Numbered from the stretch's first letter, positions 10,684 to 34,074 are shown. The stretch: 54,878 bases of DNA from a virus (IMGVR_UViG_3300030099_002160:1-54878); one strand, 5' to 3'. Translations and numbers: made by a program. The notes: generated by a model from the sequence alone, not told the origin.

Positions 10684-13600
10684 TTAATCTAGAGGTATAT
10701 TAACATCTTTTATCAGATCTTCAAAGAAAAATCCAGTAGCTAGTGGAAGCTTTTTAATAGAGTCTAATTTTTTCTCTTGACCATCTGGCATTCTTAAAAC
10801 ATCTTTATACTCTCTAAAAACTTTTCTAGCATTTTTATAATATCTATTATACTCCTCGTCTTTAGTAATCTCAATACCCATACTATCAAAAGCTCTACCT
10901 ATTGCAACATTAATTTCCCCTGGTTTGTCAGAAGTTTCCTGTAGCAAGACTCTAGTTATAGCTGATCTATTTTTATCGCCATCTCTATATTGTCTAACTA
11001 ATTCGACTATAGTTGGATCTCCTATAGAAGCATAAGTTATATTATTATGATAACCTGTGAGCCACCTCTTCCAATCATTTTTGTCAAAAACATGTGTTTC
11101 TATAAATCCAGGTTCCTTGCTTAACTCTTTTACTGACTTCTTTACAGCTTCAACAACCATCACATTATCTAATGTTTGCATTATTTCAGGTAGGGTTTTA
11201 TCTCTATATTCTTCCCTAAGCTCACCATTGTCATCTAATGGTAATGTGAAAATATTACCCTCTTTATCTACGTAAGTTTTGTTTTGGCTATCGTATGTTA
11301 CACCCATATCTTTAGCAACTTGTCTAAAATATTGATCAAACACATAATTCACGTTTGCATTTTCATTAACTAAAGTCTTAGTATTTTCAACTAATGGATC
11401 TACATCTCTCTCTGTTAGATCAACCTTACCTATAAATCTATCTTTAGCTGGTCCAAAGAAGTCTTCAGTAAATTCAATAAAAGCTTTGTCTGTTTCTATC
11501 TTGTCCGCATCAGGTCTAAGTACATTGCCGCCTACAGTATATACATTATTAAATGTTTGATACCAAGGATTTCTATCAAGATTAGTAAATACAGATCCCA
11601 GTCCCTCTTTTAAGTTTTGAGTGTTAGCAAGGGGATCAACAACATTTCTAACCATTCTACCGTCACCAAGAAAATCACTAGCATAGTCAAATGTTGTTGC
11701 TAAAGCTTTTATCAACTGATCCTCTTCTGAGCTTAAATTTCTCATTCTTAAAGGACCTATCACATTTGGATCCCCCCTCCAAACTTGTTCTTCTCTCCAA
11801 AGATCATAGTTTTTGTATATTTTATAAAAGGCTGATATACCTGGATTCGAAGCTAAGACACCCTCGGTTGGAATAGGCATAGACTTTTTAAACATGTCTA
11901 AATAATCCTTTCTGGTATTTGCAGATGGTCTTCCAGTTATGTTTTGATAAGCCAAGTCCTGAGCAGGAAGTTTAATAAAATCTAATGAAAGATCAGTAGG
12001 CAGTTTTAAATAAGAAGGATTAGTCACTGTATTTTGTCTCCTTTCCTTTTCTAAAGCTCTGATTCTCTCAGACAACTCAATAGTGGGATTTTCAAGATAT
12101 TCTAACCTCATATTTTCAATAGCAATTTTGAGATTTTGTTCTTTTTCAGGATCTAAATAATCATGCCCCGACCAAGGAAGCATAACAACAGTGTGATTTT
12201 TCTTATCATACTCACTAACTTTGTCATAAAGATATTCAGTGTTTTCTTTGTCTTGCCTTAGTAAATCTTCTTCTTGCTCTCTTAACTTTATCAAATCATT
12301 TATTATCTCAGCGTCTGTTGTGTTTCCTGAAGTTATAGCTTTGTCATACATTTTTTCAAGCTTCTTAACACTTCTAATATTATTAAATTTATTTTGATTT
12401 TGATCCATGAAGTTTTTATCCAACTCCTTATCTATTCTTTCTTTTTCGTCTTCATCACGATATAGTCTAAACGCTGCTGATAAAGAGAATGCTGTTGCTG
12501 CATAAAATATAAATTGAGACTGTGCAAGATCCCAAAAGAACTGAGCTTTATTTTTCTTAGCGTACTTTAAACGAGAATACATAACTTGAAGACCTGCGTT
12601 TAGATAAGCAAAACCTGCTTTTTTATCAAGAGACTTTATTTCATTACCACCCCCATTAAAGTTAGCGTAATCAACAGCATTTCCTACAGCCAACCTTACA
12701 ATTTCTTTGTACTCTTCTTCATTAGGATCTCTACCATTTTCTTTTTTAAACTTCTTTATATAGGTGGATTTCCATCTTTGCGTATTAGCTAACCTACCCA
12801 TTAACTCACTCCATTGATTTAAAGAACCGAAATATTCCATTGTTTTTCTAAGAGCATTAACTTTATTTGGATCTGAAAATGGCTGATCGTCAGGGTCTAA
12901 AACTATTTGACCGCTCAAAGATGCTTGATTAGCAGCCTCTACAGCTTGATTATACGTTAATCCCTGTTCTTTTTGTAATTTATCTATATACTGCTCTAAA
13001 GGATCTTTGTAGGCTTTTACGTTTCCATTTTCTGAGTTTATACCTTGAGTGTTAAAAAAATCAAGATTACCTCCACCAAGCATATATTCATCAACCAAAG
13101 GTGTGGGAACATCCGTCCCCTTAGCTAGCCTACCTCTGACATTTAAAACATGAGAAAAAGCTTCACTAGAAACACTCGCCCAATCAACAACAGCATTAAA
13201 ATATTTTAGAGGTAAAAATAATCTGTTCCAAAAATTGTAATTATAACTGTCACTAAACTGAACTTGTTGAGTCATATCTAATCTAGCATTATTCAAGAAA
13301 AAGAATATTCCTAAATTTCCAGTAGCAAAAGTTTTTAAGTAATTAGCCAGCGTAGCATTAAATCTAAGAGCAGCACCCACTCCTGGAACTGTTAATAGAC
13401 TGTCAATATTTTGACTCAAACCAGGTCTGTTAAATAAGGATTGATACGCCTCTTCTGTCAACGCCATTTTTTTAACATCTCCATTTATACGAACAGGGAC
13501 TAAGTAGTATTGATTTGTAGCACCATTTATACTATTAGTATACTCAGGAACATAAGGTCTATCTTTAGTAACTGTGTATCCAACAACTTCACTAACAGGT

Positions 13601-16600
13601 ATAGGATTGTTTTCGTATTCTCCAAAGATACGTCTAGCTAAACCAAACCTCTTAGGATTTGTTTCTGATTGAGCCTTTTCAATTATACTTATAGTATTGT
13701 ATATACTATTTATAGCTTCATTAGTGGCTAGAATACTAAATGTAGATCCTATATTACCTTCTAATAGTTTTACTGGATCTGTAAACAATACTTCATCACT
13801 ACCAAGACCTATCTCTTTTAGTGGGTTAGCTACGTTGTGCACTTTAACGGTGCCAGGCATTTTTATATTTATAACATTGTCTTCCGATATAACAGAGTGA
13901 TGTATAAATCTTCTTGGAATATAATCTAGATCTTTTAGATTTGCGTAAGTAATATTGTCTATCAACCCTCCTTCCCACTTTCTCTTTAACAAATCTTTAT
14001 GTACTGAAAATACTTCATCGGCTTTTTTATTCAAAAATTCAAAGTCGGGCTTTGTTTTTTTACTGTCTAGTATAGCCTGTGCGGTTTCTTTAGATAATAC
14101 TTCACCCGTTCTTGGCTGTCCGTCTAAACTTAGCTTAGGATGAAGAAGTCTCCAAGGATTTATATTTAAATCACCCTCTATGTTTTTCATTTCTAATCCA
14201 GGGGGTACTTCTACCTCCATAAATCCATCTTTGACATACTCACCATTTTCTACTAATACTAATTTATATTCTGAAGGTCTGAATCCAAAATCTGATTTTT
14301 CAAAAACTAAATCCATCTTTACTCTTTTGTCTTTGATCTTTCCATCTTCTCCCTTTTCTGAGAATGGATATAAATTTTTAGCTTGTGTTACCAAAATTCT
14401 TATATCTCTTTCTGTTTGTCTGATCTGCCTAGTAATATCTTTACTTTCTTCAGTAGGAGGACCCATAATTCCTTTTGCCTCGTCCCTAGAATCTTTTAAA
14501 GTATTTATATCTTCATATTTTTGATTTATCTCTTTTATCACCTCATCTAAAACCAACTTTCTTCTATCAAACTCATCATCCAAAACTATAACTCTTCTAA
14601 GTAACATTATTGTACCCAGCTCTCTAATTTGATCGTTAGACATCTTGTAAAATATAGGATTAGAAAACTTATCAGCATAATGTCTAGCAGTTCCAGGAGA
14701 GTTGTTCCACCTTATTAATGACATTAGGTTGTCCATAGCTTGAGGCTCTAAGTCATATTTTCTAGCTGCTAATTCTAAGCTTTTTCTAATAAAATATCTA
14801 GAGTCAACCGACCCCTCCATAAGTTTAGATCTTAAACTTCCCACTTGACCAGCTTTGAATTTCGCAACTGCTTGTTGAGCCTGACTCAAAAAGTACGTAA
14901 AGATAGCGTTAGTAGATTTGTTTCTATAGCTGTTATCAATATTAGATTCTAATACTTTATCAAGTTTGTTTACTTCTTCGCTTGTATAACCATCTGGTTT
15001 TGAGGAGTTTATAGAAGGCACAGATTGTTGATCTAACAAAGTTTCTTTTTCATCAAGTTCTTTTTGCTCCTCTTCTGTTAGTGCAGATTCTTCCGTAACT
15101 TCAACATCACCTATGGACGTTTTTGGATTTTGTTCGTGAAGATGGTAGTCATCAAATATTTCATTCTTAAAAAATTCTTTTATAGAAAACTCTAGTTCAG
15201 AAGTGTGCTGTCCTGTGTCTTTTAAATATTTTATAGCCCTATCTATAGCATGACCAACATTAGCTGTTGTTCTAAGACTGATAGAAGCTAACTTAATAGC
15301 TGTCATAAAAGCCTGTCTAAATCCAAAGTCTGAATAAAGATGACCTTCTTTAAGCATGCTATTGTACAGTGCATCTAGTTTTTCTGCTAGTGTAATTAGC
15401 TTCTGAAATCTCGGAACGCTTCTAGCATCTTCTCCATGTCTTTTTCTGACATCCGAGATGTCTTCGGCTGCGAAACCAAGATCAAGCGTTGATTGTCTTC
15501 TGGTAAGTTCGGATCTGAGATCTGTGTCGAAGGATTTGTCTTTTTCTTTAATTGTTTTATATTCTCCATTTGTAAATACTTTAGTGTTAACGTAATTTTT
15601 TTCGAAATAATTAATTTTTATATTGTTGTTTTCAAGTTTTTCTCTAACAGATTCTGCATCTTGATCAAACTTATTTTGTGAGTTTATCCAGTTTTCTTCT
15701 CCTATAATATCATCTATATTATTGAAAGACTTAGTATTCATAGCATACTCTGGTACAAGCTGAAACTCTACTCCTACTATCTGCTTTTGCTGATTATAGT
15801 TAAATGAATATCCAGATATATCAGAAGTATTTAAAGCGTTTACTAAGAACTCTTTATCAGTGTCAGTTAGGGGTGAGTCAAACTCTATTCTTCTATACGG
15901 TCTTGCGTTGGGATGATCTTGACTTGTTGTCCTAGAAACAAACACAGATGTCTGACCGTTGTAGTAACCTATGTCCATAGCTTGATTTACAATAACAGAT
16001 ATATCGGCACCCTTAGGTATAACAGCTTCTGTAGTAATGTTTGGTTCAGCTTGATTATTATATACCCCTTCAGTAATCTCTACTCTTGACATCAAAGGAT
16101 TTAAAGATCTTATAGCTTCTTCCATGTTCTTTTTAGCTTGATCAAATCTAACAGACCCCTTCAAAGTTTGCATAGATATTTGTATAAGCTCTTCATCCGT
16201 AGCTCCTCTTTCTATGGCTGGATACAATTTATTATACACATTAGCCATGTGCATCTCTTTATCTTGACCTATAAAAGCACTAGCTCCAACAGAAAGTCTT
16301 TCTACTGTGCCATTAGCTTTTATCTTAGAGTCCATAGTAGTAAGTTTCTCTATGTTTCTAAAACCCATAGTGTCCCACAGAGTCTGTTCATACTGCCATA
16401 TTATAGCTTGAACGTCTTCTATCTCTATATTATCAACTCCAAACAGTGAACTCAGGTCTCTGGTAGAAGTAAGATCTCTAAGAACATCTTGCATAAATTT
16501 AAAGTCTGGATCAGAAACCCCACGCTCTTGTGGTTGTCTACGTCTCCAGTATACTGGACCTGTAGGTTGTGAACCAGTTTGTTTATAGGCTGAGTCATAC

Positions 16601-19600
16601 AATGCCCTTCTACCAAATCTACCCATCCAAACATCTATAGTCGCATTGTGATCTCTTTGAGATAAGTTGTTGTAAAATTGAGCTGTCTTTAGAGCAGGCT
16701 TGCTTAACATCTCTGGAGTCCCTGTTTTGTCAGCAAACTCAAATCCTATCCAGTTACCGTATAGAACTCTTATGATGGCTCCGTTAACAGCTCCAAAAGA
16801 AGTTGGTCTACCATTAGATCCTAAAACATTTCTAGCCTTTTCTATTTCTTCTACTATTCTAGCATCATTAGAAGCACTTATCATTTTATTTTGAGCATTT
16901 ATCAGAGTCATACCACCCAGTTCATACTCTTTCAGAATGTAGTTTACGCTTTCATCATATATCTCAAGAGCTTTGTTTAGCTTGCCCTGTGAGTATAATC
17001 TTAGAGCTTCATCAGTTTTTTGTACGTTAACTTCTGGTGTCACCTGTGCAGAGCTAGCTCCAAGTAGTTCAAAATACATATTAGCAAAAGGACCAAACTT
17101 TTCTTGAACAATCTCTCTAGTATTTCTATACCATCCAACAGAATCATTCATAAAGTCATTTAAGTTCATACCAGATTGACTAACTACAGCGGGTAAATTT
17201 TGTAACTCACTAAATATAACATTAGAAGTAAATTTAACCTTTTGTTGATATTGCTGTTCTGAAGTTAATGTTCTATCTATATTTTGATTAAATATAGGTG
17301 CATCTAGTAATTCAAAACCAAAGTCTTTAAAAGCAACTTTACCACCCTTGGTAAATTTAGGGTATCCAGCTTGATTTAATACTATTTCCTCTGGCTGTAG
17401 CTGCTTGTCTGGATTATTTTCGTTATATGTATTAGAGTCTTCTACTTTCTTTAATGCTGATTGATACTTCTTTAACCTAGATCCTGAATACATATTTTCA
17501 TAAGTCTTAGGATTCTTAGATCTTTTTATCATTTTATGCAACTCAGTAACATCTTCAACTCTAAACTGCTTAGGATATTTTTTCTCCATAGCACTTATAA
17601 ACTTCTTTTTGTTACCTTTTACTAGCTCGTATTCTTTTACTGACTTATTGTATATATTACTTTGACCCCATAGGAAATAATTTTTAAGATCTGTTTTACT
17701 TATCCTTGATCCATCAGGCATCTTAAGTTTGCTTACAGCATCATTTACAGCTTTGGAAAAACCTTTACCTAATTTAAGACCAGATCTTATAGATCTAAGC
17801 AAAGCCTCAGCTAAAGCAATCCAGTTGTCTTTGGTGCCTAGCCCCATTAATATATCTGACTTGATAGTATTGTCTCTGTTTCTAGCTAGCCATTCTAATC
17901 TTTCATCTATCCATTTTAGCATAGAATCAATAGCTTCAGTAGAGTTATTAGGCTCAAAAGGATCCTTGATTGAAGATTGATTAGCGGATCTAGCAGAACC
18001 CAACAAGTCCATGAGTTTACCCGCTTCAGTAGACGAGAAAGACTTTCTACCAAGAGCTTCAGCAAAAGAAGTAAATGTTGTAGTGTTTTTGTCCAGCAAA
18101 GACACAAGGTTTTGATATGCTTCGTTTTTGGTTCTACCCATAGTTATACCTGTCCTTGTTTCTACAAAAGCAGGCTCTCCAGGTTTTTTTGTCAACTCTA
18201 TGTTTAGATTGTTTATAATACCTTTATATGTCTTGGTTCTGTAATCGTAAGAAAACATTTTATTGACAGTTTTAGGCATACCTTTTATGTCACGCATCCA
18301 GTCCTGGACAGGTGTAAAAGTTTTCAATAGGTCAACAGGGTCAGAAACATTTAATCCTCCATCTTCTACTTCTAGAGCCATAACCTCAGATATATTATAT
18401 ATAGTAGGCTCTTTTACTAAGGCGTTTACTATTACGCTTTGTTGTTCTGTTAAGGAAACTTCTATAGGCTTGCCTTCTAGCGAGTTAGCTGCTGCCTCTA
18501 ATACTATAGTGCTTTCTACATCTGGATACCTTGACTTTACCTTTTCAGTTATATTTCTAAATATATTTGTAGGCAAATCATTATTATAGAATAAATCATA
18601 GTTTGTTTTTATGTTAAGATCTTGGTAGAACTTATCTAAAGCATCAGCATAGTTTCTAGAGTCTGTTTTGTCTGGAAACAAATCTTTCTTTTCTTTCCTG
18701 TTATATTCTGCTTCTTCTTCTACATCTGAGTCAAACCTATCTTTTAGCTCGTCTAGCTGATCTTTAGTAAAATTAAAAGTGTTATTAACAAAGTTATTAA
18801 CAGAATCCCAGTCTCCTGATTTTACTCCTGCGTAGTACACCTTATACAAGTCCTCAGTGTTTGCCATTCTAAGATACAACTCATCTTTACTGTATTGATC
18901 TATAGATTCTTTTACAGGTCTACTAAGTGATTCTTTGATTAATTTATCAGCGGCATTTATATCTTTCTTTTCTTGTTCGTTAGCTTCTAACGCTGTCAGT
19001 CCATAGTCTGTTCCATCCTTGTCTGTTCTAATCATCATGGTATTCTGAAACTTTTCATCAATTTGTTTTTCAAGATCCAGATCATCATCTATTCTCAAGT
19101 TTATAGAACCGTTTTTTATTTTCTGTATAAAGGTAGGATCGTTAATCAAACTCTCCATAGCTCTTTTAGTAACATCTTTACCATTTACACTATATCTACC
19201 AGAAGGTGCGTTTAATAATTTTAAAGCATCTGGAGTCCCTTCTTTTGCTGTTTGATAGTCACTGTCAAGTAATGCCTTTACCTCTTCTCCAAAAGCTGAG
19301 TTTTTATACTGTTCAACAGACTCTAAGTATTTTGTTATAGCAGTGTAGTCTACGTCAGATAAATCTATGTTACCATCGTTATAGTCCTGTATCATCTGTT
19401 CTAGCTGTGCGTCTATACCTCTAGCTGTTGCAAGAGTAAACGCAGATGACATACCATAACACATAATAGCAGTGGTAATTAATTTATTTATTTTTTCATC
19501 TTTAGTTTCACCTATAGTTTTTGCAAAAGCCTTTTTGTAGTCAAAACCCATTTTGTCTAGGTTGTCTGTAAACTCACCAGCATATTCAGCAAATAGTTCA

Positions 19601-22548
19601 GCAGTACCACCGACACCCACTCTAGTACCTACTACACCTAATGCAAGACCACCCTTACCAACCTTTTCATATACAGACATAAGTGCTTTAGTATATTTAT
19701 TAGACTTAACCATCTGCTTAAACATGTTCTGAACAAAACCTTCAGCAGCACCCATTCTCCAATTTACAACATCTCCAGACGTAGCTTCAAATGCAGCGGC
19801 ACCTGTAATCATGTCCTTAGCCATGTCAAATACAAAAGCCCCAACAGGTGTTGATGTGGCTGCATTCTCTAGTTTTGCAAACTTAGGTATCTTTGATAAA
19901 GATGTTATACCAGCTCTAGCCAATGGGTATGTCAACAAAAGTTCACCCATAATATAAAATGTAGATCCAGCACCTTGACCCAACATATCTGTAAGATCAG
20001 TTTCTCCAGCTTTACTTTGTAGTTCGGTAACAGGAATGTTTTTTTGTCTAGCTATATTAGCGTAATTGTTTTGAACATCGTTATCGGTAAAAATAGGAGA
20101 CTTAGTAAAAGATTCTTTGAATGACTCACCAATTTGACTAAGTAATCTAGAGTTTTTTATAGAGCCTTTTCTATTGTTCCAAGCTTTACCAGGATCTACA
20201 TTATAAGCTAATACATTTTCTACAGCCATCAAAGATGTTATGTTATTGTTATATTTACCTCTGAAGTTTACAAGGTAGTTTAACATAGCTTTAACATCTT
20301 CCTTTGAGCTACCTTTTAACGGTCCTATAATGTTTTTTATGATAGCACCCTGAAAGTTATTATCTAACTGTCTAAGTTTATTAAAAGCACCTATAGCGAT
20401 ACCTTCATCCTCTAATGATCTGTCTAAATACTCTTGTTGCATAGGTGTGCCAGCGTAAGGACCAGATCTAACTTTTTCTCTTAAACCTGCATCAAACAGA
20501 AAGTCTCTCATCTCGCTCAAAGTCATTTTAGCACCACTAGGTAGAGTCATTTTGTTATTAGCAAAAACATCTTCCATAAGTTGTTTCTGAGCGTAAAAGT
20601 CGTTACTCTGCTCGGTAAGCATACTAGCTATCGTGCCCTCATCATATCCAGTGTCATACAGTTTAAGATATTCTTTTTCTTTTAGACTTACACCTTGACC
20701 TATTTCTTTTAATCCTGGATCTACAGCTGCACCAGACTCATCAAATAAAGCTTCATCTTTTGTTCTTTTTTCTAGTCTTAGCTGTTCAATTCTAGAGTCT
20801 ATATCAGAGAGTGTGGTTGTTAGATTTGATAATCTTTTAGCGTCATCGCCTGTTTGCTCACCTTCACTAAGCTCTTGTATCTGTGATCTTATTTGATTTC
20901 TTCTATCAACAAGACCTTTTATCTTAAAGTAACTATTTTCTGTATAATCATCAACAGAAGCAACTGAGCCTATTAGTGTTATTTGATCGTTTATAGTAAA
21001 CAGTGTAGATACTACTTTTGTTTTTTGATCGTCATATCTATCCTGCATAGAGTTTAATCCTGTGATGTAAGCTTCATTACCAAGCATATCCTCCTTACTA
21101 GAAAACTTACCATTTTCTTTTATGAAGTCTGTTGTATAGTTATTTAGCTTTGTATTTATTTTGTAAGGATCTAACAACTCATTATTTGCAGCTCTTCTAG
21201 GAGTTTCTAAATCTACATCTCTATATATGTTTTCATTAGGATCAACTAAGTTTTTATATAAATCATCTGGTGTAAACACTAAGTCTACCTGTGTATCTTT
21301 TAATTTTAAATTAGAAGTTTTTGGATGATTAACAAAGTATCTAGCAGAAGTAGAACTAGCATTATCTAATATATTTTTGTATAAGTTTTCCTTGTGTAAG
21401 TTATACACTTCTAATACCTTTTGATTATCAAGATATTTATTTTGGTTTTCAGTAGACAAGTCATCAATACTACCTTCAGCTAGTAATTCTTTTTGTTGTT
21501 TCTCTAGTCTACTTATTTCCGCATTCATATTCATGTAAGACTCAAACTGAGCTAGTCCTTTAGAATTAACAGGTAGTGACCCATCATCCTCTATCTCATC
21601 GCTCATCAAATCTTTTAACATGCTTACACCACTTTTTCTTAGTGGTTTTAATATTTTACCTACCGTAGTTTTAGCTTGATTTGGATAGATACCTATTTTG
21701 TTTTTAGGTATCATAAATATATCATCATCTGAGTTGTTGTCGTACAATCTCATTATGTTCTTACCTCTGTCAGATATTTTTAAAGAGTTGTCAAACTCTA
21801 TATCAACAGATTCAGCTGGCTCAAAGAAATTACCTGGCTTAGTGATTACTTTAGCATTTGTCTTAGTAGGACTTTCAGGATCCTCATCCTCTAATAAATA
21901 ATCAAAGTTTGCGTTTGGTGCCTTAGAGTAAAGATCTAGAGACTTAAATACAGATGTTGTGTCCTTTGGGTTTTCGTAATATTTTTTAAAGTCAGTATCG
22001 TCTTTTATTTTGTTAAGATTATTTTTAACCTCTTCACTTTTTCGTGACTTGTTTAGGTTTTTAATATCTATTTCTTCTTGATACTTTAGTTTTAAAGACT
22101 CTTTGATAGCTTGCGGCACTAGATCTTCGAATACTATAACACCATCCTTGGAGTAGTTACCACCTATGGGGTCGTAGTCCCACACGTCTTGATCACTATC
22201 ATCAAGTGGACCAATGGGTCTTGTATCTACAGAAGCTCCTTCCTGTGCCTTAAACGGTTTTTTTGTTGCCGACTGCCCCGATTCTCCAGTTGCCGATCCT
22301 AATAAACCATTTGCCGAATCTTTTTTTTTTAACCCATACCTGTTTTTGATTTGATTCATTTGATCTTTAGTAGGGTGTTTACCTACTAATCCTGAGTACA
22401 TGCCCATGATCATATTGTCATAGTCACCATCAAAATTCATTAATATTGAATCAATCTGGTATTGGTTTGGAGTTTTCTTGGTTAATTGCTTGTAAAAGTC
22501 TTTTATAAACTTTACAGCTCTTTTATCATTTTGATAAACTATTGCCAT
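10684..22548 (-). CDS. giant (3954 aa) polyvalent virion cargo / ejection protein
   Basis: last of three genes after the tail genes; Gly/Ala hydrophobic segment near aa 850-1050; HhH-like domain; LPD38-like helical C-terminal region (ELMGRLA...DYANFNGGG...AYLNAGLQ). Confidence 0.75.
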   Translation of the reverse strand: MAIVYQNDKRAVKFIKDFYKQLTKKTPNQYQIDSILMNFDGDYDNMIMGMYSGLVGKHPTKDQMNQIKNRYGLKKKDSANGLLGSATGESGQSATKKPFKAQEGASVDTRPIGPLDDSDQDVWDYDPIGGNYSKDGVIVFEDLVPQAIKESLKLKYQEEIDIKNLNKSRKSEEVKNNLNKIKDDTDFKKYYENPKDTTSVFKSLDLYSKAPNANFDYLLEDEDPESPTKTNAKVITKPGNFFEPAESVDIEFDNSLKISDRGKNIMRLYDNNSDDDIFMIPKNKIGIYPNQAKTTVGKILKPLRKSGVSMLKDLMSDEIEDDGSLPVNSKGLAQFESYMNMNAEISRLEKQQKELLAEGSIDDLSTENQNKYLDNQKVLEVYNLHKENLYKNILDNASSTSARYFVNHPKTSNLKLKDTQVDLVFTPDDLYKNLVDPNENIYRDVDLETPRRAANNELLDPYKINTKLNNYTTDFIKENGKFSSKEDMLGNEAYITGLNSMQDRYDDQKTKVVSTLFTINDQITLIGSVASVDDYTENSYFKIKGLVDRRNQIRSQIQELSEGEQTGDDAKRLSNLTTTLSDIDSRIEQLRLEKRTKDEALFDESGAAVDPGLKEIGQGVSLKEKEYLKLYDTGYDEGTIASMLTEQSNDFYAQKQLMEDVFANNKMTLPSGAKMTLSEMRDFLFDAGLREKVRSGPYAGTPMQQEYLDRSLEDEGIAIGAFNKLRQLDNNFQGAIIKNIIGPLKGSSKEDVKAMLNYLVNFRGKYNNNITSLMAVENVLAYNVDPGKAWNNRKGSIKNSRLLSQIGESFKESFTKSPIFTDNDVQNNYANIARQKNIPVTELQSKAGETDLTDMLGQGAGSTFYIMGELLLTYPLARAGITSLSKIPKFAKLENAATSTPVGAFVFDMAKDMITGAAAFEATSGDVVNWRMGAAEGFVQNMFKQMVKSNKYTKALMSVYEKVGKGGLALGVVGTRVGVGGTAELFAEYAGEFTDNLDKMGFDYKKAFAKTIGETKDEKINKLITTAIMCYGMSSAFTLATARGIDAQLEQMIQDYNDGNIDLSDVDYTAITKYLESVEQYKNSAFGEEVKALLDSDYQTAKEGTPDALKLLNAPSGRYSVNGKDVTKRAMESLINDPTFIQKIKNGSINLRIDDDLDLEKQIDEKFQNTMMIRTDKDGTDYGLTALEANEQEKKDINAADKLIKESLSRPVKESIDQYSKDELYLRMANTEDLYKVYYAGVKSGDWDSVNNFVNNTFNFTKDQLDELKDRFDSDVEEEAEYNRKEKKDLFPDKTDSRNYADALDKFYQDLNIKTNYDLFYNNDLPTNIFRNITEKVKSRYPDVESTIVLEAAANSLEGKPIEVSLTEQQSVIVNALVKEPTIYNISEVMALEVEDGGLNVSDPVDLLKTFTPVQDWMRDIKGMPKTVNKMFSYDYRTKTYKGIINNLNIELTKKPGEPAFVETRTGITMGRTKNEAYQNLVSLLDKNTTTFTSFAEALGRKSFSSTEAGKLMDLLGSARSANQSSIKDPFEPNNSTEAIDSMLKWIDERLEWLARNRDNTIKSDILMGLGTKDNWIALAEALLRSIRSGLKLGKGFSKAVNDAVSKLKMPDGSRISKTDLKNYFLWGQSNIYNKSVKEYELVKGNKKKFISAMEKKYPKQFRVEDVTELHKMIKRSKNPKTYENMYSGSRLKKYQSALKKVEDSNTYNENNPDKQLQPEEIVLNQAGYPKFTKGGKVAFKDFGFELLDAPIFNQNIDRTLTSEQQYQQKVKFTSNVIFSELQNLPAVVSQSGMNLNDFMNDSVGWYRNTREIVQEKFGPFANMYFELLGASSAQVTPEVNVQKTDEALRLYSQGKLNKALEIYDESVNYILKEYELGGMTLINAQNKMISASNDARIVEEIEKARNVLGSNGRPTSFGAVNGAIIRVLYGNWIGFEFADKTGTPEMLSKPALKTAQFYNNLSQRDHNATIDVWMGRFGRRALYDSAYKQTGSQPTGPVYWRRRQPQERGVSDPDFKFMQDVLRDLTSTRDLSSLFGVDNIEIEDVQAIIWQYEQTLWDTMGFRNIEKLTTMDSKIKANGTVERLSVGASAFIGQDKEMHMANVYNKLYPAIERGATDEELIQISMQTLKGSVRFDQAKKNMEEAIRSLNPLMSRVEITEGVYNNQAEPNITTEAVIPKGADISVIVNQAMDIGYYNGQTSVFVSRTTSQDHPNARPYRRIEFDSPLTDTDKEFLVNALNTSDISGYSFNYNQQKQIVGVEFQLVPEYAMNTKSFNNIDDIIGEENWINSQNKFDQDAESVREKLENNNIKINYFEKNYVNTKVFTNGEYKTIKEKDKSFDTDLRSELTRRQSTLDLGFAAEDISDVRKRHGEDARSVPRFQKLITLAEKLDALYNSMLKEGHLYSDFGFRQAFMTAIKLASISLRTTANVGHAIDRAIKYLKDTGQHTSELEFSIKEFFKNEIFDDYHLHEQNPKTSIGDVEVTEESALTEEEQKELDEKETLLDQQSVPSINSSKPDGYTSEEVNKLDKVLESNIDNSYRNKSTNAIFTYFLSQAQQAVAKFKAGQVGSLRSKLMEGSVDSRYFIRKSLELAARKYDLEPQAMDNLMSLIRWNNSPGTARHYADKFSNPIFYKMSNDQIRELGTIMLLRRVIVLDDEFDRRKLVLDEVIKEINQKYEDINTLKDSRDEAKGIMGPPTEESKDITRQIRQTERDIRILVTQAKNLYPFSEKGEDGKIKDKRVKMDLVFEKSDFGFRPSEYKLVLVENGEYVKDGFMEVEVPPGLEMKNIEGDLNINPWRLLHPKLSLDGQPRTGEVLSKETAQAILDSKKTKPDFEFLNKKADEVFSVHKDLLKRKWEGGLIDNITYANLKDLDYIPRRFIHHSVISEDNVINIKMPGTVKVHNVANPLKEIGLGSDEVLFTDPVKLLEGNIGSTFSILATNEAINSIYNTISIIEKAQSETNPKRFGLARRIFGEYENNPIPVSEVVGYTVTKDRPYVPEYTNSINGATNQYYLVPVRINGDVKKMALTEEAYQSLFNRPGLSQNIDSLLTVPGVGAALRFNATLANYLKTFATGNLGIFFFLNNARLDMTQQVQFSDSYNYNFWNRLFLPLKYFNAVVDWASVSSEAFSHVLNVRGRLAKGTDVPTPLVDEYMLGGGNLDFFNTQGINSENGNVKAYKDPLEQYIDKLQKEQGLTYNQAVEAANQASLSGQIVLDPDDQPFSDPNKVNALRKTMEYFGSLNQWSELMGRLANTQRWKSTYIKKFKKENGRDPNEEEYKEIVRLAVGNAVDYANFNGGGNEIKSLDKKAGFAYLNAGLQVMYSRLKYAKKNKAQFFWDLAQSQFIFYAATAFSLSAAFRLYRDEDEKERIDKELDKNFMDQNQNKFNNIRSVKKLEKMYDKAITSGNTTDAEIINDLIKLREQEEDLLRQDKENTEYLYDKVSEYDKKNHTVVMLPWSGHDYLDPEKEQNLKIAIENMRLEYLENPTIELSERIRALEKERRQNTVTNPSYLKLPTDLSLDFIKLPAQDLAYQNITGRPSANTRKDYLDMFKKSMPIPTEGVLASNPGISAFYKIYKNYDLWREEQVWRGDPNVIGPLRMRNLSSEEDQLIKALATTFDYASDFLGDGRMVRNVVDPLANTQNLKEGLGSVFTNLDRNPWYQTFNNVYTVGGNVLRPDADKIETDKAFIEFTEDFFGPAKDRFIGKVDLTERDVDPLVENTKTLVNENANVNYVFDQYFRQVAKDMGVTYDSQNKTYVDKEGNIFTLPLDDNGELREEYRDKTLPEIMQTLDNVMVVEAVKKSVKELSKEPGFIETHVFDKNDWKRWLTGYHNNITYASIGDPTIVELVRQYRDGDKNRSAITRVLLQETSDKPGEINVAIGRAFDSMGIEITKDEEYNRYYKNARKVFREYKDVLRMPDGQEKKLDSIKKLPLATGFFFEDLIKDVNIPLD

Positions 22549-25941: not shown

Positions 25942-28900
25942 TTAATCGTCACTTAGTTCACTGTTGAATATAGTAGCACTACCGCTAAATATTTCTAGTA
26001 GCTTTTTAGATCTTTTCTTTAACTTAACTTCCATAAATCTACCTTTCATTCTGTCACCTTCAGATATTGCTGGTCTTTTTATAAACAAAAACTGATTATC
26101 AAAAGGATCTACAGAAGAAGAAAGAACTAACACATTATCACTATTTATGTCAGATATAGTACCTACTAAAACATCTGAGGTGCCATCATTAAAAAATAAT
26201 TGATCTCCGTAGTCAGGACTGGTAACATCTGTAGATGTACCTAAAATTATATTGGCAGCTCCAAAGTTTGTGTTAGATCCAGCTATGACACCAATACCAG
26301 CGTCATTGTTAAGTCCAGTGCCAGCACCTAGTCCTATAATCTCTGATCCTGTGCTGTTAGTAGTTACAAAAGGTATTTGTGCGTACTGCTTGTTTTCTCT
26401 TTCATCAAAGACTCTTCTGTCAATAGATGTTTCTGTCATGTCCGTAATAAGGGTTAGATCATAACTACTTTTATCTTCTTCTTCTACTCCGTCTTCTGTT
26501 GACTCCACTTCTTGATTAGCTTCTAAAGTTATAGACTTAAAACCTTTTACCGTTGAAGGACCTTCATTAATAAAAAAGTCTAACTCTGTATTGTATGTGA
26601 CACCATAAAATGTATTGTGATTTTGATCGTCCATGTCATGTAGAAACAAAGCACCATTTTCCCAAGATGTAAATAATACATTTATCTTACCGTAGTAATC
26701 TGCTACGTGAGAATAGAATGTAATCCATCTTTTCTGTAACTCAGCCCAAGATACTACTTCTCCTGGAGCTAAAACATCTAAATCCTTATCCTCTGATTCC
26801 CAAGTGTCTACAGTTCCTAATACATCCCACTGTAATGGAGTATTGTCAAACTCATCACGTCTTCTTACAATTCTAGGAAACTGAATTATATATTCATCAT
26901 GCTTAGGGTTGAATCCACCTTTTATTCTAAAGTCCTTATGATTATCCTGTAGCATGGATCCAGTCACGTCACCATAACTTTCTTCCCACTTATATTCTGG
27001 ATTAAACACTTTGTATTCTTCAGACTTGTCTCTAAAGTAATCTATCATCTTGGCACTAGATATAGTGGTTATGCCATTTTGTTTTAGCCTTAGAGAAACA
27101 CCACTTCTTATATCTGTCCAGTAACATACGTTACCATCCACAACAAATGACTCTGGATTTTTACTTATACCATAATGCTCTGAATAAGCTTGTCTCTGAC
27201 CAAGAACTTTATTTGACACAGTAACATTTTTCTGATTGTCTGCTGTTAAAAGTATGTCTTTAGCTACAGGCACATTATATGTTTTGTCTTCGTGTATAAC
27301 TAACATGTTTGTGTCTCTAGCATATATCTTTTGTATACTGCCATCTATTTCGCTGTAGTGTTTTACATTATCAGTATTAGGATCAAAAGTGCTCAGACCA
27401 TTAAAACTTGTAGCTGGCTGATAAACATCAGAGTATGTGATAGAAGATATATTGTTAAACTCTTTAAAATATGGTGAGAACAAGTTGGCTCTACCAATGC
27501 TAAAGTGATTTGTGTTTATAAGATCATTACAGAAATAATCTTCTATGTAGAAGTTATTTGCTGGAGTCAACATATCTCTACTCTTGTAATAAACATCGCC
27601 TGTTAAAAACTGACCAGTAGCTGGACTGTTTGAAGTAAAGTTTCCAAAAGCATCCGCAGTACCACTAAAGCTTTGATCTGATGTGTCACCTAGGTGAGTT
27701 CCAAGAGGTTGTTGTACTTCATACAATTTACTAAACTCAAAGTATACTGTCTCATCTGGATCTGGCTCTTGCTTAGGTCTATATATCTCTACTATAGATC
27801 TAGTTATATTTGAAAAGTTTGATTTATTATATCCATCTACAACATTACCATCTGAGTCTAATACTTCATCTATTATCAAAAACCAAGCATCTTGTGAGCC
27901 ATCAGATGGAAGAGCGTTTAAACCAGAAGCATTAAGAATGGGAGCTGTAGGATCAGACTGTGAATAATATTCAAAAGCAGCTATTTTTACATCTATATAA
28001 GAAGGTGCTACATTTGCGTCTGTTGTATTTTCTCCTGCTGGACCTGGACCAGTTATAAATCTAATTCTATCTCCCTTTACAAAGTCATAATCAAATATTT
28101 CTTTCATAGGGTTAGGAACATTGTTTTCCGATAAAGGACTCGTAGATATATAAGATTCATCAGCACCTTTTAAGTTTCTTAAGCTAATAAATATTCTTGT
28201 ATCTGAAGATACAAAGTTGTTAACAAAGACATCACTAAGTCTAAACTGAACAAACTCATCTACAGTGTTGTTTCTAGAGTAATACCACCTGTAATATTTA
28301 GCCCAGCTAGGAGCTTTGTGAAATATACTCCATCCTATTGTTACCGCACCATAAAGACCTGCATCATTCGTACCACCAGGAGGATTGTCAGAAGAAGTTC
28401 TTTCACTAGGAAACTTAACATAAACTTGAGACTCATCATCTATCAAGACTGTTGAACATCTACCTCTTTCGTCAAAATAGACTAAACCAAAACTGTGAAA
28501 AGCTCCACTCTTAAAAGAAGAAACTCCACCACCTTCTAAAGAAATATCTACATCATCTTGATATGTTGGACCACCATAAGTCTTTGGATCTCCTTGAACA
28601 TAACCATACTGAGGCGTGGTTTTAATGTTTATCTTAGGCACATCAAATCCCTGTGTGTAGTTTCCGTAAGCTAATCTAGTGTTTCCAATAATAGTTTGTG
28701 TGTTTGCAGATCTAGGTACAGAGTCAAAAAGTCTATCTCCTGATCCAGCATCTATAAATCTATATAGTTGATCGTTGTAGAACGATATAGTTTGCTCTGA
28801 TAAATTGTCTATCTGCCAAGCACTAAAATCATTATTTATTTTTGCTATAGTGAAAAACTCACCTCTGTTACCCCTAGCTAAGTTGCCAAGATCTTTACAC

Positions 28901-31545: not shown

Positions 31546-33171
31546 TTAATCTATATTATCATTAGCCATATCATCATTAGCGTTCTTCATTACAGCTAAC
31601 AACTCAACTAAGTTTCTTATTATTATTTTTTCGTAGTCTGCTGGTATAGGATAAAGACTATGATCTTCTATTTTACTAGATGTTCCTATATAACTAACTC
31701 TAAGGTTTTTACCATACTTATCTGTAAAAGAATCAAAATCATATCTTTTATATAGATATATTGCTGCTCCCCCTTGAAGACCTGTTGATGCTCCAAAGTT
31801 TACAAGATTTTCTATATAGTAGTATTGTCTGCCTGTTTTATTTACAGTTTTGTCGTAAAGAGAGTTGTGCTCACCTCCTGATGGCATTCTATGAAATATT
31901 ATTTGCTCATACGCCTCTGCCGCTGGTGAGGGTTTTGGACTGACGTTTTCATTTTTTGTTATTGTAAAAGTATTACCTGGAGTAAATGGTTGTATATTAT
32001 ATCCTCCCTGTGGCTTTATTTCTTCAAAGGTTAAAGTAAATACATTAAAACCAAGACCTAAAGTTCCTTTTTGACAGATTATATTTTGTTCTTTAGATAG
32101 CTTATAAGCGTTTTCTAAAATAAATTTATCTATAATATCTTCGTGAGTTATCTCTGTTGTTGGTGCCACAAACTCACTACTATACATGGTGTCATTAATC
32201 ATAAATGCTATACCATGAGAGTTTTCTTCACCTTTTAAGAAAGGGTCTTGAGAAATAAAATGATCACTTTTATCACTAAATATATTAATATTAAATCCTA
32301 TATTACCATTATTAGTACCATCGAGAAAGGCAGTGTTAGTAGAATTATCATCAGGGCTAGAAGAAGTAGAACCAACGCCATTAACTCTAAAATCTGTTAT
32401 TTTGGAACCATATAGGGTTTCCAGTAAGATTGAGGTATTATGTGATATAACAGTGCTACCAACAGAAGTTGAATTTAAAGTTTCACCCTGAACAAAACCA
32501 TATTTAATATCAAAGTCTTTAACAAATTTTTGAAAACCAGGACTATTTACTAAAGATTTTATAAAGTCTCTATGTGTGTTTTCATAACTGTTATTTTCAG
32601 AGGTATCAACATTAAACTGTATTTTGTGAGTTTTTACCCCCTCATGTGTATTTGCAAAAGTAGATTCATTGGACATTAATGTTTTCGTTATTTCAAAGTC
32701 AATCTCTACAAAATATTTTTTATCTAAAACCTTTGGTCCTCTACTAAAAGTTATGGTTATTTTATTTGGCTTGTATGTAGCAGGTTTTGCACCGCCTTTT
32801 ATCTTGAATACATCACCTTGTTTTGTAAATCTAGTGAGAACATTTTCCACTCTCTGTATACCCATGTCATTAGGTAAAGAAACATAGCTAAAATCTAGAG
32901 CAGCTACTAGAGCACCATTTCTAGAGACATCCCTTGATATTGGAACAGTTGCCTGAGATATCCATCCTCCATCTATTTCTAATTCACCTTTTGCTGTAGT
33001 AGTAGACTTGGTATACATCCAGTCCATTATCTCAGACTTTATTAGAGAGTCTCTTTCTTGATCAACAAGGATCATAACTTCTCTTATGTCTATAGAGCTG
33101 TCTTCAGTAGGATCCCCACCGTTAACGATTCTTAATACTTGTTCTGCTATTTTATATCTTGTTGTTGCCAT
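31546..33171 (-). CDS. tail ring / adaptor protein with large central insertion
   Basis: ring-like N-terminus (GGDPTEDSSIDIRE) and C-terminus (YPIPADYEKIII); synteny. Confidence 0.6.
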   Translation of the reverse strand: MATTRYKIAEQVLRIVNGGDPTEDSSIDIREVMILVDQERDSLIKSEIMDWMYTKSTTTAKGELEIDGGWISQATVPISRDVSRNGALVAALDFSYVSLPNDMGIQRVENVLTRFTKQGDVFKIKGGAKPATYKPNKITITFSRGPKVLDKKYFVEIDFEITKTLMSNESTFANTHEGVKTHKIQFNVDTSENNSYENTHRDFIKSLVNSPGFQKFVKDFDIKYGFVQGETLNSTSVGSTVISHNTSILLETLYGSKITDFRVNGVGSTSSSPDDNSTNTAFLDGTNNGNIGFNINIFSDKSDHFISQDPFLKGEENSHGIAFMINDTMYSSEFVAPTTEITHEDIIDKFILENAYKLSKEQNIICQKGTLGLGFNVFTLTFEEIKPQGGYNIQPFTPGNTFTITKNENVSPKPSPAAEAYEQIIFHRMPSGGEHNSLYDKTVNKTGRQYYYIENLVNFGASTGLQGGAAIYLYKRYDFDSFTDKYGKNLRVSYIGTSSKIEDHSLYPIPADYEKIIIRNLVELLAVMKNANDDMANDNID

Positions 33172-34040: not shown

Positions 34041-34074
34041 AAAAAAAAAGGAGGTAACAACAATGTACCCCCTT
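34041..34074 (-). terminator. intrinsic terminator
   Basis: minus strand AAAGGGGGTA-cattgttgt-TACCTCC-T9 (one G-U pair). Confidence 0.75.

What the first reader, a model, noticed from the sequence alone, without database searches (positions are those of the whole stretch)
22250..22332. Candidate programmed -1 frameshift or slippage at A10 in the giant cargo gene, giving a ~99-aa alternative product
Seen: the minus strand reads TTA AAA AAA AAA GAT (10 A, codons 73-76). The next ~65 nt use TCG four times and CCG once, which is unusual for this AT-rich gene, and repeat TCGGCAA three times. The zero frame there is a bland linker (DSANGLLGSATGESGQSA), whereas the -1 frame reads RFGKWFIRIGNWRIGAVGNKKTV-stop (TAA 22252-22250), a patterned R-[FI]-G-x-W cationic/aromatic peptide. 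Known: A_AAA_AAA is a slippery heptamer and runs of 9 or more A promote bacterial RNAP slippage. Inference: dual coding produces a short protein sharing the 76-aa N-terminal domain with an amphipathic tail, which could set stoichiometry or act as a chaperone or anchor for the 3954-aa protein.
Basis: partly seen in the sequence, partly recalled or inferred. Interest (0 to 1): 0.72.

Follow-up and report, generated by a model that had tools for sequence, protein, structure and literature searches.

The report
Conserved poly-A recoding site in phage giant gene
A run of ten A's near the start of a marine phage's giant virion-protein gene opens a short overlapping reading frame that evolution has clearly preserved, so the gene very probably makes a ~99-residue protein as well as the 3954-residue one.

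Summary
Comparative evidence supports dual coding.

- **Run conservation:** of 34 homologous loci that reach the site, 33 keep exactly A10 in the same phase and one has A9.
- **The -1 frame:** it stays open for 22-23 codons (26 in one low-coverage contig). It encodes a conserved Arg/Lys-, Trp/Phe/Tyr- and Gly-rich tail.
- **Substitution pattern:** Fitch steps by zero-frame codon position are 135/91/252 upstream and 213/142/349 downstream. Between the run and the -1 stop they are 17/44/21, so the wobble moves to the -1 frame (p = 8e-14).
- **Alternatives ruled out:** an antisense ORF, a conserved RNA structure and a terminator.
- **Other lineages:** syntenic giant genes of Elemovirus, Callevirus/phi38:1, MW202828.1 and one further lineage also carry A10 or A11 followed by an unusually long, cationic-aromatic -1 frame.

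No RNA or protein data show the shift itself. I favour RNA-polymerase slippage over ribosomal frameshifting. The function of the short protein is inferred only. The mechanism is of a known kind, but I found no report of this site.

The parts
22321..22330 (-). A10 slippery run (TTA AAA AAA AAA, codons 73-76 of the giant ORF)
   Evidence: It is the longest homopolymer in the window. A10 is kept in 33 of 34 homologous loci that reach the site.
22250..22321 (-). Overlapping -1 frame ORF. It has 23 sense codons (first codon AGA at 22321..22319) and stops at TAA 22252..22250. It encodes a cationic, aromatic, Gly-rich tail with a 7-residue (21-nt) repeat.
   Evidence: Fitch steps by zero-frame codon position are 17/44/21 here, against 348/233/601 in the flanks. 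Rare TCG codons are explained by [FI]-G in the -1 frame.
22321..22548 (-). Codons 1-76: the N-terminal domain shared by the giant protein and the predicted short product. It is predicted as a four-helix bundle.
   Evidence: Normal zero-frame substitution pattern of 135/91/252. AlphaFold2 with alignment A3 gives helices 9-23, 29-39, 43-54 and 61-71 at pLDDT about 80. No fold or Pfam match.
10684..22548 (-). Giant ORF (3954 aa), the last large gene of the structural module. It is the zero-frame product.
   Evidence: No Pfam, PHROG or PDB sequence match. Full-length homologues of 3967-4137 aa exist.
25942..30813 (-). Context: 1623-aa ORF with a crassvirus muzzle C-terminal domain, two genes upstream of the giant gene.
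   Evidence: PF25729 crAss_MUZ_C, E = 8.2e-07; phrog_14478 virion structural protein.

Best explanation
The A10 run is a programmed recoding site. Standard decoding gives the 3954-aa virion protein. On a fraction of messages, RNA polymerase stutters on the ten-A tract and adds one A (or removes two). Ribosomes then leave the zero frame after Lys76, read 23 codons of a conserved overlapping ORF and stop. The result is a ~99-aa protein: the shared 76-aa four-helix N-terminal domain plus a cationic Trp/Phe/Gly-rich tail.

Shown: conservation of the run, and purifying selection on the -1 frame. Inferred: that the shift happens at transcription, how efficient it is, and what the short protein does. 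My guess at function is a membrane- or nucleic-acid-binding partner that is packaged or targeted through the same N-terminal domain as the giant ejected protein.

I put about 0.85 on 'the -1 ORF is expressed and functional' and about 0.55 on the transcriptional route specifically.
For: 1. Run conservation. A10 sits in the same phase in 33 of 34 loci that reach the site, across N-terminal identities down to about 43%. In the 50 codons upstream, 49 of 50 third positions vary among the 22 unique sequences.

2. Selection on the -1 frame. Mean entropy by -1-frame codon position is 0.38/0.35/0.83, against 0.81/0.57/1.31 by zero-frame position upstream. Fitch steps on a tree of 21 unique sequences are 17/44/21 in the overlap, 135/91/252 upstream and 213/142/349 downstream. 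The switch is confined to alignment codons 78-99. Chi-square p = 8e-14.

3. Replacements in the -1 peptide are conservative (K/R, W/F, F/Y, I/F/V), and its length is fixed at 22-23. The +1 frame varies from 6 to 48 codons.

4. Length rather than phase looks selected. In the Elemovirus lineage the run is A10 both as GAA/CAA AAA AAA AAT and as TCA AAA AAA AAA G, with different flanking amino acids. Ten A's exceed the seven that a ribosomal heptamer needs.

5. No stimulatory RNA element. RNAalifold finds 0 pairs in 16 sequences, and the window's fold has z = -0.85. The 12 nt upstream are not conserved.

6. Parallel cases. A10 or A11 is the only A run of 8 or more in the giant genes of elemoE, MW202828.1 and the Calle_1 5' part. 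Each is followed by a -1 frame open for 43, 25 and 24 codons. The per-gene chance is 0.001, 0.032 and 0.065; the joint chance with the window is about 7e-8. L058, a further lineage, has A10 and a -1 tail that shares FYIRFGR.

7. Precedent. A tssM1 A11 tract gives 20-25% transcriptional frameshifting without SD or structure signals (PMC4256274, passages read).
Against: There is no direct evidence of shifted RNA or of the peptide. The only RNA-library record across the site is one 151-nt Logan contig at depth 2.8. It shows plain A10, and contigs drop minor variants.

Which polymerase transcribes this gene is unknown.

A_AAA_AAA is also a valid ribosomal slippery heptamer, and ribosomes are reported to slide on poly-A (recalled). 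The comparative data therefore cannot separate transcription from translation.

Outside the window's lineage the selection signal is absent or untestable. The Elemovirus lineage has 16/17/19 variable columns of 44 per codon position in 5 sequences. Calle_1 versus phi38:1 shows 3 differences in the overlap, all zero-frame synonymous.

Short database proteins that fuse the N-domain to the tail in one frame (P0003, P0011, P0015) come from contigs whose sister entries carry other indels. +1-frame versions (P0016, P0018, P0024) are about as common. These look like assembly noise, not support.
Confidence: 0.55

Rival explanations
1. The product and the dual coding are the same, but the shift is made by the ribosome. 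This would be -1 programmed frameshifting on A_AAA_AAA, or ribosome sliding on the poly-A Lys codons, on unedited A10 mRNA.
For: The run contains in-phase A_AAA_AAA heptamers in every lineage and phase seen. All the comparative evidence for a selected -1 ORF applies equally here.
Against: There is no conserved downstream structure and no conserved upstream element. Known efficient bacterial -1 sites usually need these (PMC4256274 passages). Seven A's would suffice, yet ten (eleven in MW202828.1) are kept, including the synonymous TTA Leu codon (usage 0.41).
Confidence: 0.27
2. The A-run acts as a DNA-level contingency (phase-variation) tract. Replication slippage makes sub-populations of genomes with A8 or A11 that encode only the short protein. 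The conserved -1 ORF serves those genomes.
For: One locus has A9 (L040). Database proteins imply contigs with A8 (P0003, P0015) and A11 (P0011).
Against: 33 of 34 assembled loci from many samples have exactly A10. The variant contigs also carry unrelated indels (P0005, P0011, P0012, P0013). A genome without the 3954-aa virion protein should not be viable alone (inference).
Confidence: 0.05
3. There is no recoding. The run and the following 66 nt are conserved for another reason: a DNA or RNA signal, an antisense gene, or a zero-frame peptide motif. The -1 ORF is then a by-product.
For: LKKKD is also invariant at protein level and recurs in distant N-domain relatives (P0025, P0027, P0040, P0048, P0052), so a zero-frame motif exists. 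No expression data are available.
Against: In the overlap the most variable position is zero-frame position 2, which no zero-frame constraint predicts. The antisense frame that shares that wobble position is broken by a stop inside the overlap in the L007/L009/L017/L027/L036/L039 versions. There is no consensus RNA structure and no terminator-like site. A sequence signal would not produce a 3-nt periodicity with conservative amino-acid replacements.
Confidence: 0.08

Closest known systems
tssM1/tssM3 transcriptional frameshifting in Citrobacter rodentium and Yersinia pseudotuberculosis type VI secretion (PMC4256274; passages read)
   Same: A poly-A tract (A11 there) inside a large structural gene. 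RNA polymerase adds A's. Two size variants share the N-terminus. No SD-like or structural stimulator is present. Efficiency is 15-25%, and both forms are needed.
   Different: There the zero frame stops early and slippage restores the long form. Here the zero frame is the 3954-aa form, and slippage would give a 99-aa form with a conserved, selected 23-codon overlapping ORF. The gene family differs, and the host here is a phage.
dnaX tau/gamma: -1 ribosomal frameshift at A AAA AAG in E. coli, transcriptional slippage at an A9 run in Thermus thermophilus (dnaX is named in PMC4256274; the Thermus details are recalled, not read here)
   Same: A lysine-codon A-run yields a truncated product that shares the N-terminus and carries a short alternative C-terminus.
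   Different: The gamma tail is 1-2 residues and is not a selected ORF. E. coli dnaX needs an upstream SD-like element and a downstream hairpin, and neither is found here. Here the split lies at 2% of the gene length.
Potyvirus P3N-PIPO and paramyxovirus or ebolavirus editing sites (recalled, not read here)
   Same: A short overlapping ORF is embedded in a very long ORF and reached by polymerase stuttering at an A-rich run. It was first recognised by the same kind of comparative signature, with synonymous-site variation moved to another frame.
   Different: Those are RNA viruses with their own RdRp and shorter runs (GA6, A7). This is a dsDNA phage, and the polymerase is unknown.
Phage lambda G/GT and T7 10A/10B -1 frameshifts (G/GT is named in PMC4256274; T7 is recalled)
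   Same: Programmed -1 shift in a phage structural or assembly gene that sets a ratio of two products sharing an N-terminus.
   Different: Those shifts extend the protein and are ribosomal at heptamers with stimulators. G/GT lies between the tail tube and tape measure genes of long-tailed phages. Here the shift truncates, in a crAss-like podovirus module.
PhicrAss001 cargo proteins gp45, gp46 and gp47/49/50 (PMC10172136; passages read)
   Same: Large genes downstream of the muzzle gene. Their products are stored in the virion and are thought to be ejected N-terminus first to form a channel. The window has a muzzle-like gene two ORFs upstream of the giant gene.
   Different: There is no sequence match of the giant protein to any Pfam, PHROG or PDB entry. 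The paper's main text has 0 occurrences of 'frameshift'.

Membership tests
Programmed transcriptional slippage sites (tssM, Thermus dnaX, Shigella mxiE type) | Homopolymeric A or T run of about 9 or more in the sense strand of a coding region | tested here: met
   A10 at 22330..22321, kept in 33 of 34 loci.
Programmed transcriptional slippage sites (tssM, Thermus dnaX, Shigella mxiE type) | The alternative frame downstream gives a defined, conserved product | tested here: met
   The -1 frame runs 22-23 codons and is under purifying selection.
Programmed transcriptional slippage sites (tssM, Thermus dnaX, Shigella mxiE type) | mRNA population heterogeneous in run length while the DNA is homogeneous | tested here: inconclusive
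   Only Logan contigs were available. One RNA-library contig (depth 2.8) shows A10, and minor variants cannot be seen.
-1 programmed ribosomal frameshifting (E. coli dnaX, IS element, phage G/GT type) | X_XXY_YYZ slippery heptamer in the zero frame | tested here: met
   TT[A AAA AAA] and AA[A AAA AAA] G.
-1 programmed ribosomal frameshifting (E. coli dnaX, IS element, phage G/GT type) | Downstream stimulatory hairpin or pseudoknot | tested here: not met
   RNAalifold finds 0 pairs over 16 sequences. The single-sequence fold has z = -0.85, with 36 of 200 shuffles as stable.
-1 programmed ribosomal frameshifting (E. coli dnaX, IS element, phage G/GT type) | Upstream SD-like stimulator | tested here: not met
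   The 12 nt before the run differ between clades (caggtatgggtt, tcactacgggtt, ccgttacgcttt and others) with no shared purine-rich motif (by inspection).
Phage tail assembly chaperone G/GT frameshift | Gene pair between the tail tube and tape measure genes of a long-tailed phage, with a shift that extends the product | tested here: not met
   The module has a terminase, portal, capsid and muzzle-like gene. The shift truncates a 3954-aa ORF.
Contingency (phase-variable) homopolymer loci | Run length polymorphic at DNA level among isolates | tested here: not met
   33 of 34 loci have A10 and one has A9. Other lengths are seen only in indel-ridden short contigs.
Crassvirus-type virion cargo (ejected) proteins | Encoded downstream of the muzzle gene in the structural module | tested here: met
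   crAss_MUZ_C lies in ORF 25942..30813, and the giant ORF is the third gene downstream. Terminase is 39-42% identical to Elemovirus and MW202828.1, with weaker matches to crAss-like phages.
Crassvirus-type virion cargo (ejected) proteins | Sequence or fold homology to known cargo proteins, or detection in virions | tested here: not met
   No Pfam, PHROG or PDB match and no DxDGD motif. There is only a weak Atlas lead to LPD22, found on 12% of one cluster's members. Virion presence cannot be tested here. Syntenic genes of elemoE and Calle_1 are annotated 'structural protein', which is annotation only.

The most novel reading that the evidence does not exclude
An ancient recoding module is shared by several deep lineages of marine and freshwater Flavobacteriia-type crAss-like podophages: the window's clade, Elemovirus, Callevirus/phi38:1, MW202828.1 and the L058 clade. 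In each, polymerase stuttering on an A10-A11 tract at the 5' end of the giant ejected-protein gene makes a small second protein. This protein combines the giant protein's packaging or targeting domain with a Trp/Arg/Gly-rich membrane-active tail. It would act as a pilot or channel-priming partner during genome and cargo ejection. That would be the first programmed slippage known in a phage cargo gene, and it is testable in cultured phages.
Probability: 0.3. Interest if true: 0.8.

Novelty: new member of a known kind. Interest (0 to 1): 0.64.

Why it matters
Giant virion or ejected proteins of crAss-like and related Bacteroidota phages are among the least understood phage genes. A hidden, conserved second product at their 5' end would add a component to the ejection or assembly machinery. 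Gene callers miss it: the databases hold it only as accidental products of indel-bearing contigs.

The site also gives a clean, multi-lineage natural example of poly-A slippage in phages of Bacteroidota, a phylum whose translation initiation largely lacks Shine-Dalgarno signals (recalled). It can be tested directly in cultured systems, including Cellulophaga phages phi38:1 and Calle and the Flavobacterium elemo phages, for which RNA-seq already exists (SRP066570, named in PMC5335546).

In practice, annotation pipelines should flag A10 tracts at the start of such genes.

Tried and rejected
- **RNA evidence.** The look-up of sequencing runs listed 24 runs, all kept as Logan contigs. 20 rows hold the stretch or a part of it, in 12 studies, and 3 are flagged as a possible source. 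I laid 4 RNA-library runs. Only X17 covers the site, with one 151-nt contig at depth 2.8, no indel and A10. This cannot show or exclude minor A11 species.
- **DNA similarity.** blastn of the region and tblastn of the first 300 aa against 50,697 phage records gave no match. tblastn of the C-terminal 2954 aa gave one weak hit, Maribacter phage Panino at 22% over 16%. The upstream 716-aa gene used as an anchor in IMG/VR found no relative.
- **Giant protein identity.** Pfam, PHROGs and PDB sequence searches found nothing. BLASTP against elemoE gp18 gave E = 0.68. The Atlas gave only unnamed viral clusters and LPD22 on 12% of one cluster.
- **Structure of the short product.** Foldseek of the AlphaFold2 model against PDB and BFVD found nothing at E <= 0.001. 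The tail is modelled at pLDDT 42-48, so its drawn beta-hairpin is not to be trusted.
- **Amphipathic helix.** The helical hydrophobic moment beats shuffles at p < 0.05 in only 2 of 11 tails. The strongest periodicity is about 2.4 residues, which reflects the 7-residue repeat.
- **Antisense ORF** rejected. **Terminator:** none found. **Conserved RNA structure:** none found.
- **Second in-frame A7** (ACA AAA AAA CCG, 22264..22258). It is not conserved outside the window clade and L022, so I do not count it as part of the signal.
- **Short database proteins** (P0003, P0005, P0011-13, P0015, P0016, P0018, P0024). I judged these products of indel-bearing contigs, not evidence.
- **Profile search.** Only the 76 N-domain positions entered the profile, so it could not find tails.
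- **Literature.** 'Cellulophaga phage' + 'frameshift' returned 12 papers; from the 10 titles and abstract openings listed, none is about this site. 'transcriptional slippage' / 'bacteriophage' / 'poly-A' showed nothing on these phages in its listing. The terms phi38 1 + Cellulophaga + proteom returned 0 papers.
- **Not seen.** Supplements are closed, so the virion proteomics tables of the Cellulophaga phage papers and Data set S1 of PMC5335546 were not seen. They may hold relevant peptides or coverage.
- **Earlier findings** of this scan were not open.

Full report
**1. The observation**

On the minus strand the window reads ...GGG TTA AAA AAA AAA GAT TCG GCA AAT GGT.... The ten A's occupy 22330..22321. 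They are the third base of Leu73 plus Lys74-76 of ORF 10684..22548(-), 3954 aa.

The zero frame continues as DSANGLLGSATGESGQSATKK. The -1 frame, entered at the last A, reads RFGKWFIRIGNWRIGAVGNKKTV and stops at TAA 22252..22250.

The codon anomaly is real. TCG is 11 of 256 Ser codons in the gene. Four of these lie in the 23 overlap codons, and P(4 of 4) = 6e-7 from the usage elsewhere. CpG density is six times the gene's mean.

The A10 is the longest homopolymer in the window. Of 15 KKK tripeptides in the large ORFs, 12 are interrupted by AAG. The -1 frame of this gene is full of stops (density 0.14), and only 3.5% of codons are followed by 23 or more open -1 codons.

**2. What the element sits in**

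The surrounding genes form a phage structural module:
- large terminase (phrog_6681)
- portal (phrog_6547)
- capsid-like phrog_13704
- several 'virion structural' PHROGs
- a 1623-aa protein with the crassvirus muzzle C-terminal domain (PF25729)

The terminase is 42% identical to an uncultured podovirus (MW202828.1) and 39% identical to Flavobacterium phages of the genus Elemovirus. It is 31-37% identical to Maribacter and Cellulophaga phages and more weakly related to gut crAss-like phages.

The stretch occurs in marine and estuary metagenome runs: 20 rows in 12 studies, 3 of them flagged as a possible source.

The giant protein matches nothing in Pfam, PHROGs or PDB sequences. Its place, third gene after the muzzle-like gene, parallels the cargo genes of PhicrAss001 (PMC10172136, passages read). 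Reading it as an ejected cargo protein rests on that synteny and on 'structural protein' annotations in relatives. It is inference.

**3. Homologues**

Three independent routes gave DNA of relatives:
- an N-terminal protein alignment against IMG/VR (L007-L017)
- the same alignment against metagenome contigs (L018-L041)
- a degenerate pattern for the -1 peptide (L002-L006; all five contigs recur among L012-L016)

Of the 35 loci L007-L041, one ends before the site (L035). Of the 34 others, 33 have exactly A10 in the same phase, always TTA AAA AAA AAA G, and one (L040) has A9, which breaks the frame. With the window there are 22 distinct versions of the 140 nt around the site.

One of the metagenome search patterns was LKKKD[SL]A[ND]. 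This favours KKK at protein level but not the codon choice.

The four long homologues from the protein collection (35-93% identical over the first 300 residues) all read LKKKD.

**4. The -1 frame is the selected frame**

In all versions the -1 frame is open for 22-23 codons. The exception is L038, at 26 codons: a contig labelled coverage 2.8, with extra A-runs. The -1 frame encodes variants of one pattern:
- RFGKWFIRIGNWRIGAVGNKKTV
- RLGRFYIRFGRWYIGFIRNENR
- RFGKWFIRFGNWRIGVVGNKRTV
- RFGKWFIRIGNWRIGAIRNRRK
- RFGKWFVRIGSWRIGAIRSEKDI
- RFGRFYIRFGGWYIGAIRNENR

The +1 frame is open for anything from 6 to 48 codons.

*Entropy.* Among 22 unique sequences (33 loci; L035, L038 and L040 left out), mean entropy by zero-frame codon position is 0.81/0.57/1.31 in the 50 codons upstream. 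In the overlap it is 0.32/0.81/0.40. That equals 0.38/0.35/0.83 in the -1 frame.

*Fitch steps.* I used a FastTree tree built from the flanks. It held 21 unique 600-nt sequences from 30 loci; loci shorter than 600 nt, L038 and L040 were left out.

| Region | Fitch steps at zero-frame position 1/2/3 |
|---|---|
| Codons 1-72 | 135/91/252 |
| 20 codons after the run | 17/44/21 |
| From 25 codons after the run onward | 213/142/349 |

In 11-codon bins the inverted pattern occupies exactly alignment codons 78-99. Bins 78-88 and 89-99 give 9/23/6 and 12/24/15, and bin 100-110 returns to 21/10/24. The departure from the flank proportions has chi-square p = 8e-14.

A region whose most variable position is the second codon position cannot be explained by zero-frame selection.

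*Alternatives checked.* The antisense frame that shares the same wobble position carries a stop inside the overlap in the L007/L009/L017/L027/L036/L039 versions, so an antisense gene is excluded. There is no terminator-like site and no consensus RNA structure.

The rare TCG and CCG codons and the thrice-repeated TCGGCAA are what [FI]-G-N/K looks like in the -1 frame. They reflect a 21-nt (7-residue) repeat.

**5. The same arrangement in other lineages**

The syntenic last gene of the structural module was examined in five further phages.

| Phage and gene | Run | -1 frame after the run | Chance of that open length in the same gene |
|---|---|---|---|
| Flavobacterium phage elemoE gp18 (3694 aa) | A10 at nt 170-179 | 43 codons, ending ...YIGWRKTKNNWGFGIFCWER | 0.001 |
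| MW202828.1 giant gene (3859 aa) | A11 at nt 188-198 | 25 codons, net charge +9 | 0.032 |
| Cellulophaga phage Calle_1 gp001 | TTA AAA AAA AAA G at nt 99-108 | 24 codons, RKRRAFGIEFYLWSGSIKLGWFRL | 0.065 |
| Cellulophaga phage phi46:3 gp120/121 | no run | none | not applicable |
| Maribacter phage Panino CDS69 | no run | none | not applicable |

In the first three, the run is the only A run of 8 or more in the gene or part examined. Together with the window the joint chance is about 7e-8.

Five IMG/VR relatives of the Elemovirus gene (L051-L056, two of them on one contig; 51-72% identical) all keep A10 and a -1 tail ending [YF][IF]GWRKT..NWGFGIFCW[ER][KR]. Their +1 frame runs 1-72 codons. The run sits in two different phases with different flanking residues (E/Q-KK-N or S-KKK-V), yet its length stays ten.

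A further lineage with an acidic N-terminal extension (L058) has A10 and the -1 tail SWFGIGSFYIRFGRCSFGCIKSDF, which shares FYIRFGR with the L007 clade.

All tails are cationic (+3 to +9) and rich in aromatic residues (4-13) and Gly.

*Caveats.*
- These giant proteins are not detectably homologous to the window's (BLASTP E = 0.68).
- The Elemovirus sample does not discriminate between frames: 16/17/19 variable columns of 44.
- The three Calle_1 versus phi38:1 differences in the overlap are all zero-frame synonymous.
- For these lineages the case therefore rests on the run, the open frame and the composition.
- The N-terminal domain family also has members without KKK (P0030, P0033, P0034, P0037, P0038, P0042, P0044, P0046, P0049, P0050). 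The site is not universal.

**6. Mechanism**

*Shown:* a conserved A10 and a conserved, selected -1 ORF that begins at it. *Not shown:* the shift itself.

I favour RNA-polymerase slippage (about 0.55) over ribosomal -1 frameshifting or sliding (about 0.27), for four reasons:
- Ten or eleven A's are kept where seven would serve a ribosome, including the synonymous TTA (usage 0.41).
- The length is kept across two codon phases.
- No downstream structure or upstream element is conserved.
- An A11 tract in tssM1 gives 20-25% transcriptional frameshifting without such elements (PMC4256274).

That bacterial polymerases slip efficiently on runs of about nine or more is recalled knowledge.

The single RNA-library contig over the site shows A10 at depth 2.8 and decides nothing.

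Insertion of one A or loss of two gives the tail frame. Loss of one A gives a 7-residue extension (KIRQMVY) in the window.

**7. The product**

An AlphaFold2 model was built from the database protein P0003. This is the N-domain and tail in one frame, taken from a contig with two fewer A's. The model was aligned with N-domains and tails translated separately from 16 loci (alignment A3).

The model gives a four-helix bundle for residues 9-71 (pLDDT about 80) and an unreliable tail (pLDDT 42-48). No fold relative was found.

My functional proposal is inference from composition and context only. I propose a small partner that shares the giant protein's N-terminal targeting domain and binds membrane or nucleic acid through the Trp/Arg/Gly tail.

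**8. Comparison and novelty**

The mechanism belongs to a known kind: poly-A slippage giving two products with a common N-terminus, as in tssM, dnaX and, among RNA viruses, P3N-PIPO.

As a case I found it unreported. Two searches returned nothing on it in their listings. The phi38:1 transcriptome paper has 0 occurrences of frameshift or slippage, and the PhicrAss001 atlas has 0 of frameshift. Supplementary proteomics tables could not be seen.

It is a new member of a known kind, with unusually strong comparative support and cultured relatives in which it can be tested.

Noticed in passing
window 3630-4226 (+): The DUF1064 ORF carries the window's two other sense-strand all-AAA KKK runs. One is A9 at 3633-3641, directly after the ATG. 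The other is A9 at 4179-4187, near the 3' end. These could be further slippage-prone sites.
   Followed up: no
window 34041-34049: An A9 on the + strand (T9 on the coding minus strand) lies in the gap between ORFs 33171-34013 and 34099-34989. It may be part of an intergenic signal.
   Followed up: no
window 22258-22264 (-): A second in-frame A_AAA_AAA heptamer (ACA AAA AAA CCG) sits just before the -1 stop, so a shift there would end at the same TAA. It is present only in the window clade and L022 at this place. One noisy database protein (P0013) is frameshifted there.
   Followed up: partly
L043:14352-25436, L045:741-12320 (-), L047:1-2235 (-), L058:1022-1031: Giant or large last genes of the structural module in Elemovirus, MW202828.1, Callevirus/phi38:1 and a further IMG/VR lineage each carry one A10-A11 run 100-220 nt into the gene (about 340 nt in L058). 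Each is followed by an unusually long cationic-aromatic -1 frame.
   Followed up: partly
window 25942-30813 (-): The 1623-aa structural protein has a crassvirus muzzle C-terminal domain (PF25729, E = 8.2e-07). This suggests that this marine phage group shares tail architecture with Crassvirales.
   Followed up: no
window 22321-22548 (-) and proteins P0025-P0054: The 76-aa N-terminal domain defines a wider unnamed family at the start of many large phage proteins; 41 representatives score E <= 1e-3. Some keep ...YGLKKKD and others have no Lys run. Some proteins carry the domain twice, for example P0052.
   Followed up: partly
window 18049-20448 (-), giant protein residues 701-1500: This stretch contains Gly/Ala-rich hydrophobic segments (seen in the translation). 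Its nearest Atlas clusters are unnamed viral proteins, one with LPD22 (a large polyvalent protein domain) on 12% of members.
   Followed up: no
L046:24119-28758 and L044:9007-14496: Cellulophaga phage phi46:3 and Maribacter phage Panino lack the A-run. In phi46:3 a 102-aa 'structural protein' gene (gp119) lies immediately upstream of gp120, which is annotated with a TTG start. This might be a split or differently recoded version of the same arrangement.
   Followed up: no
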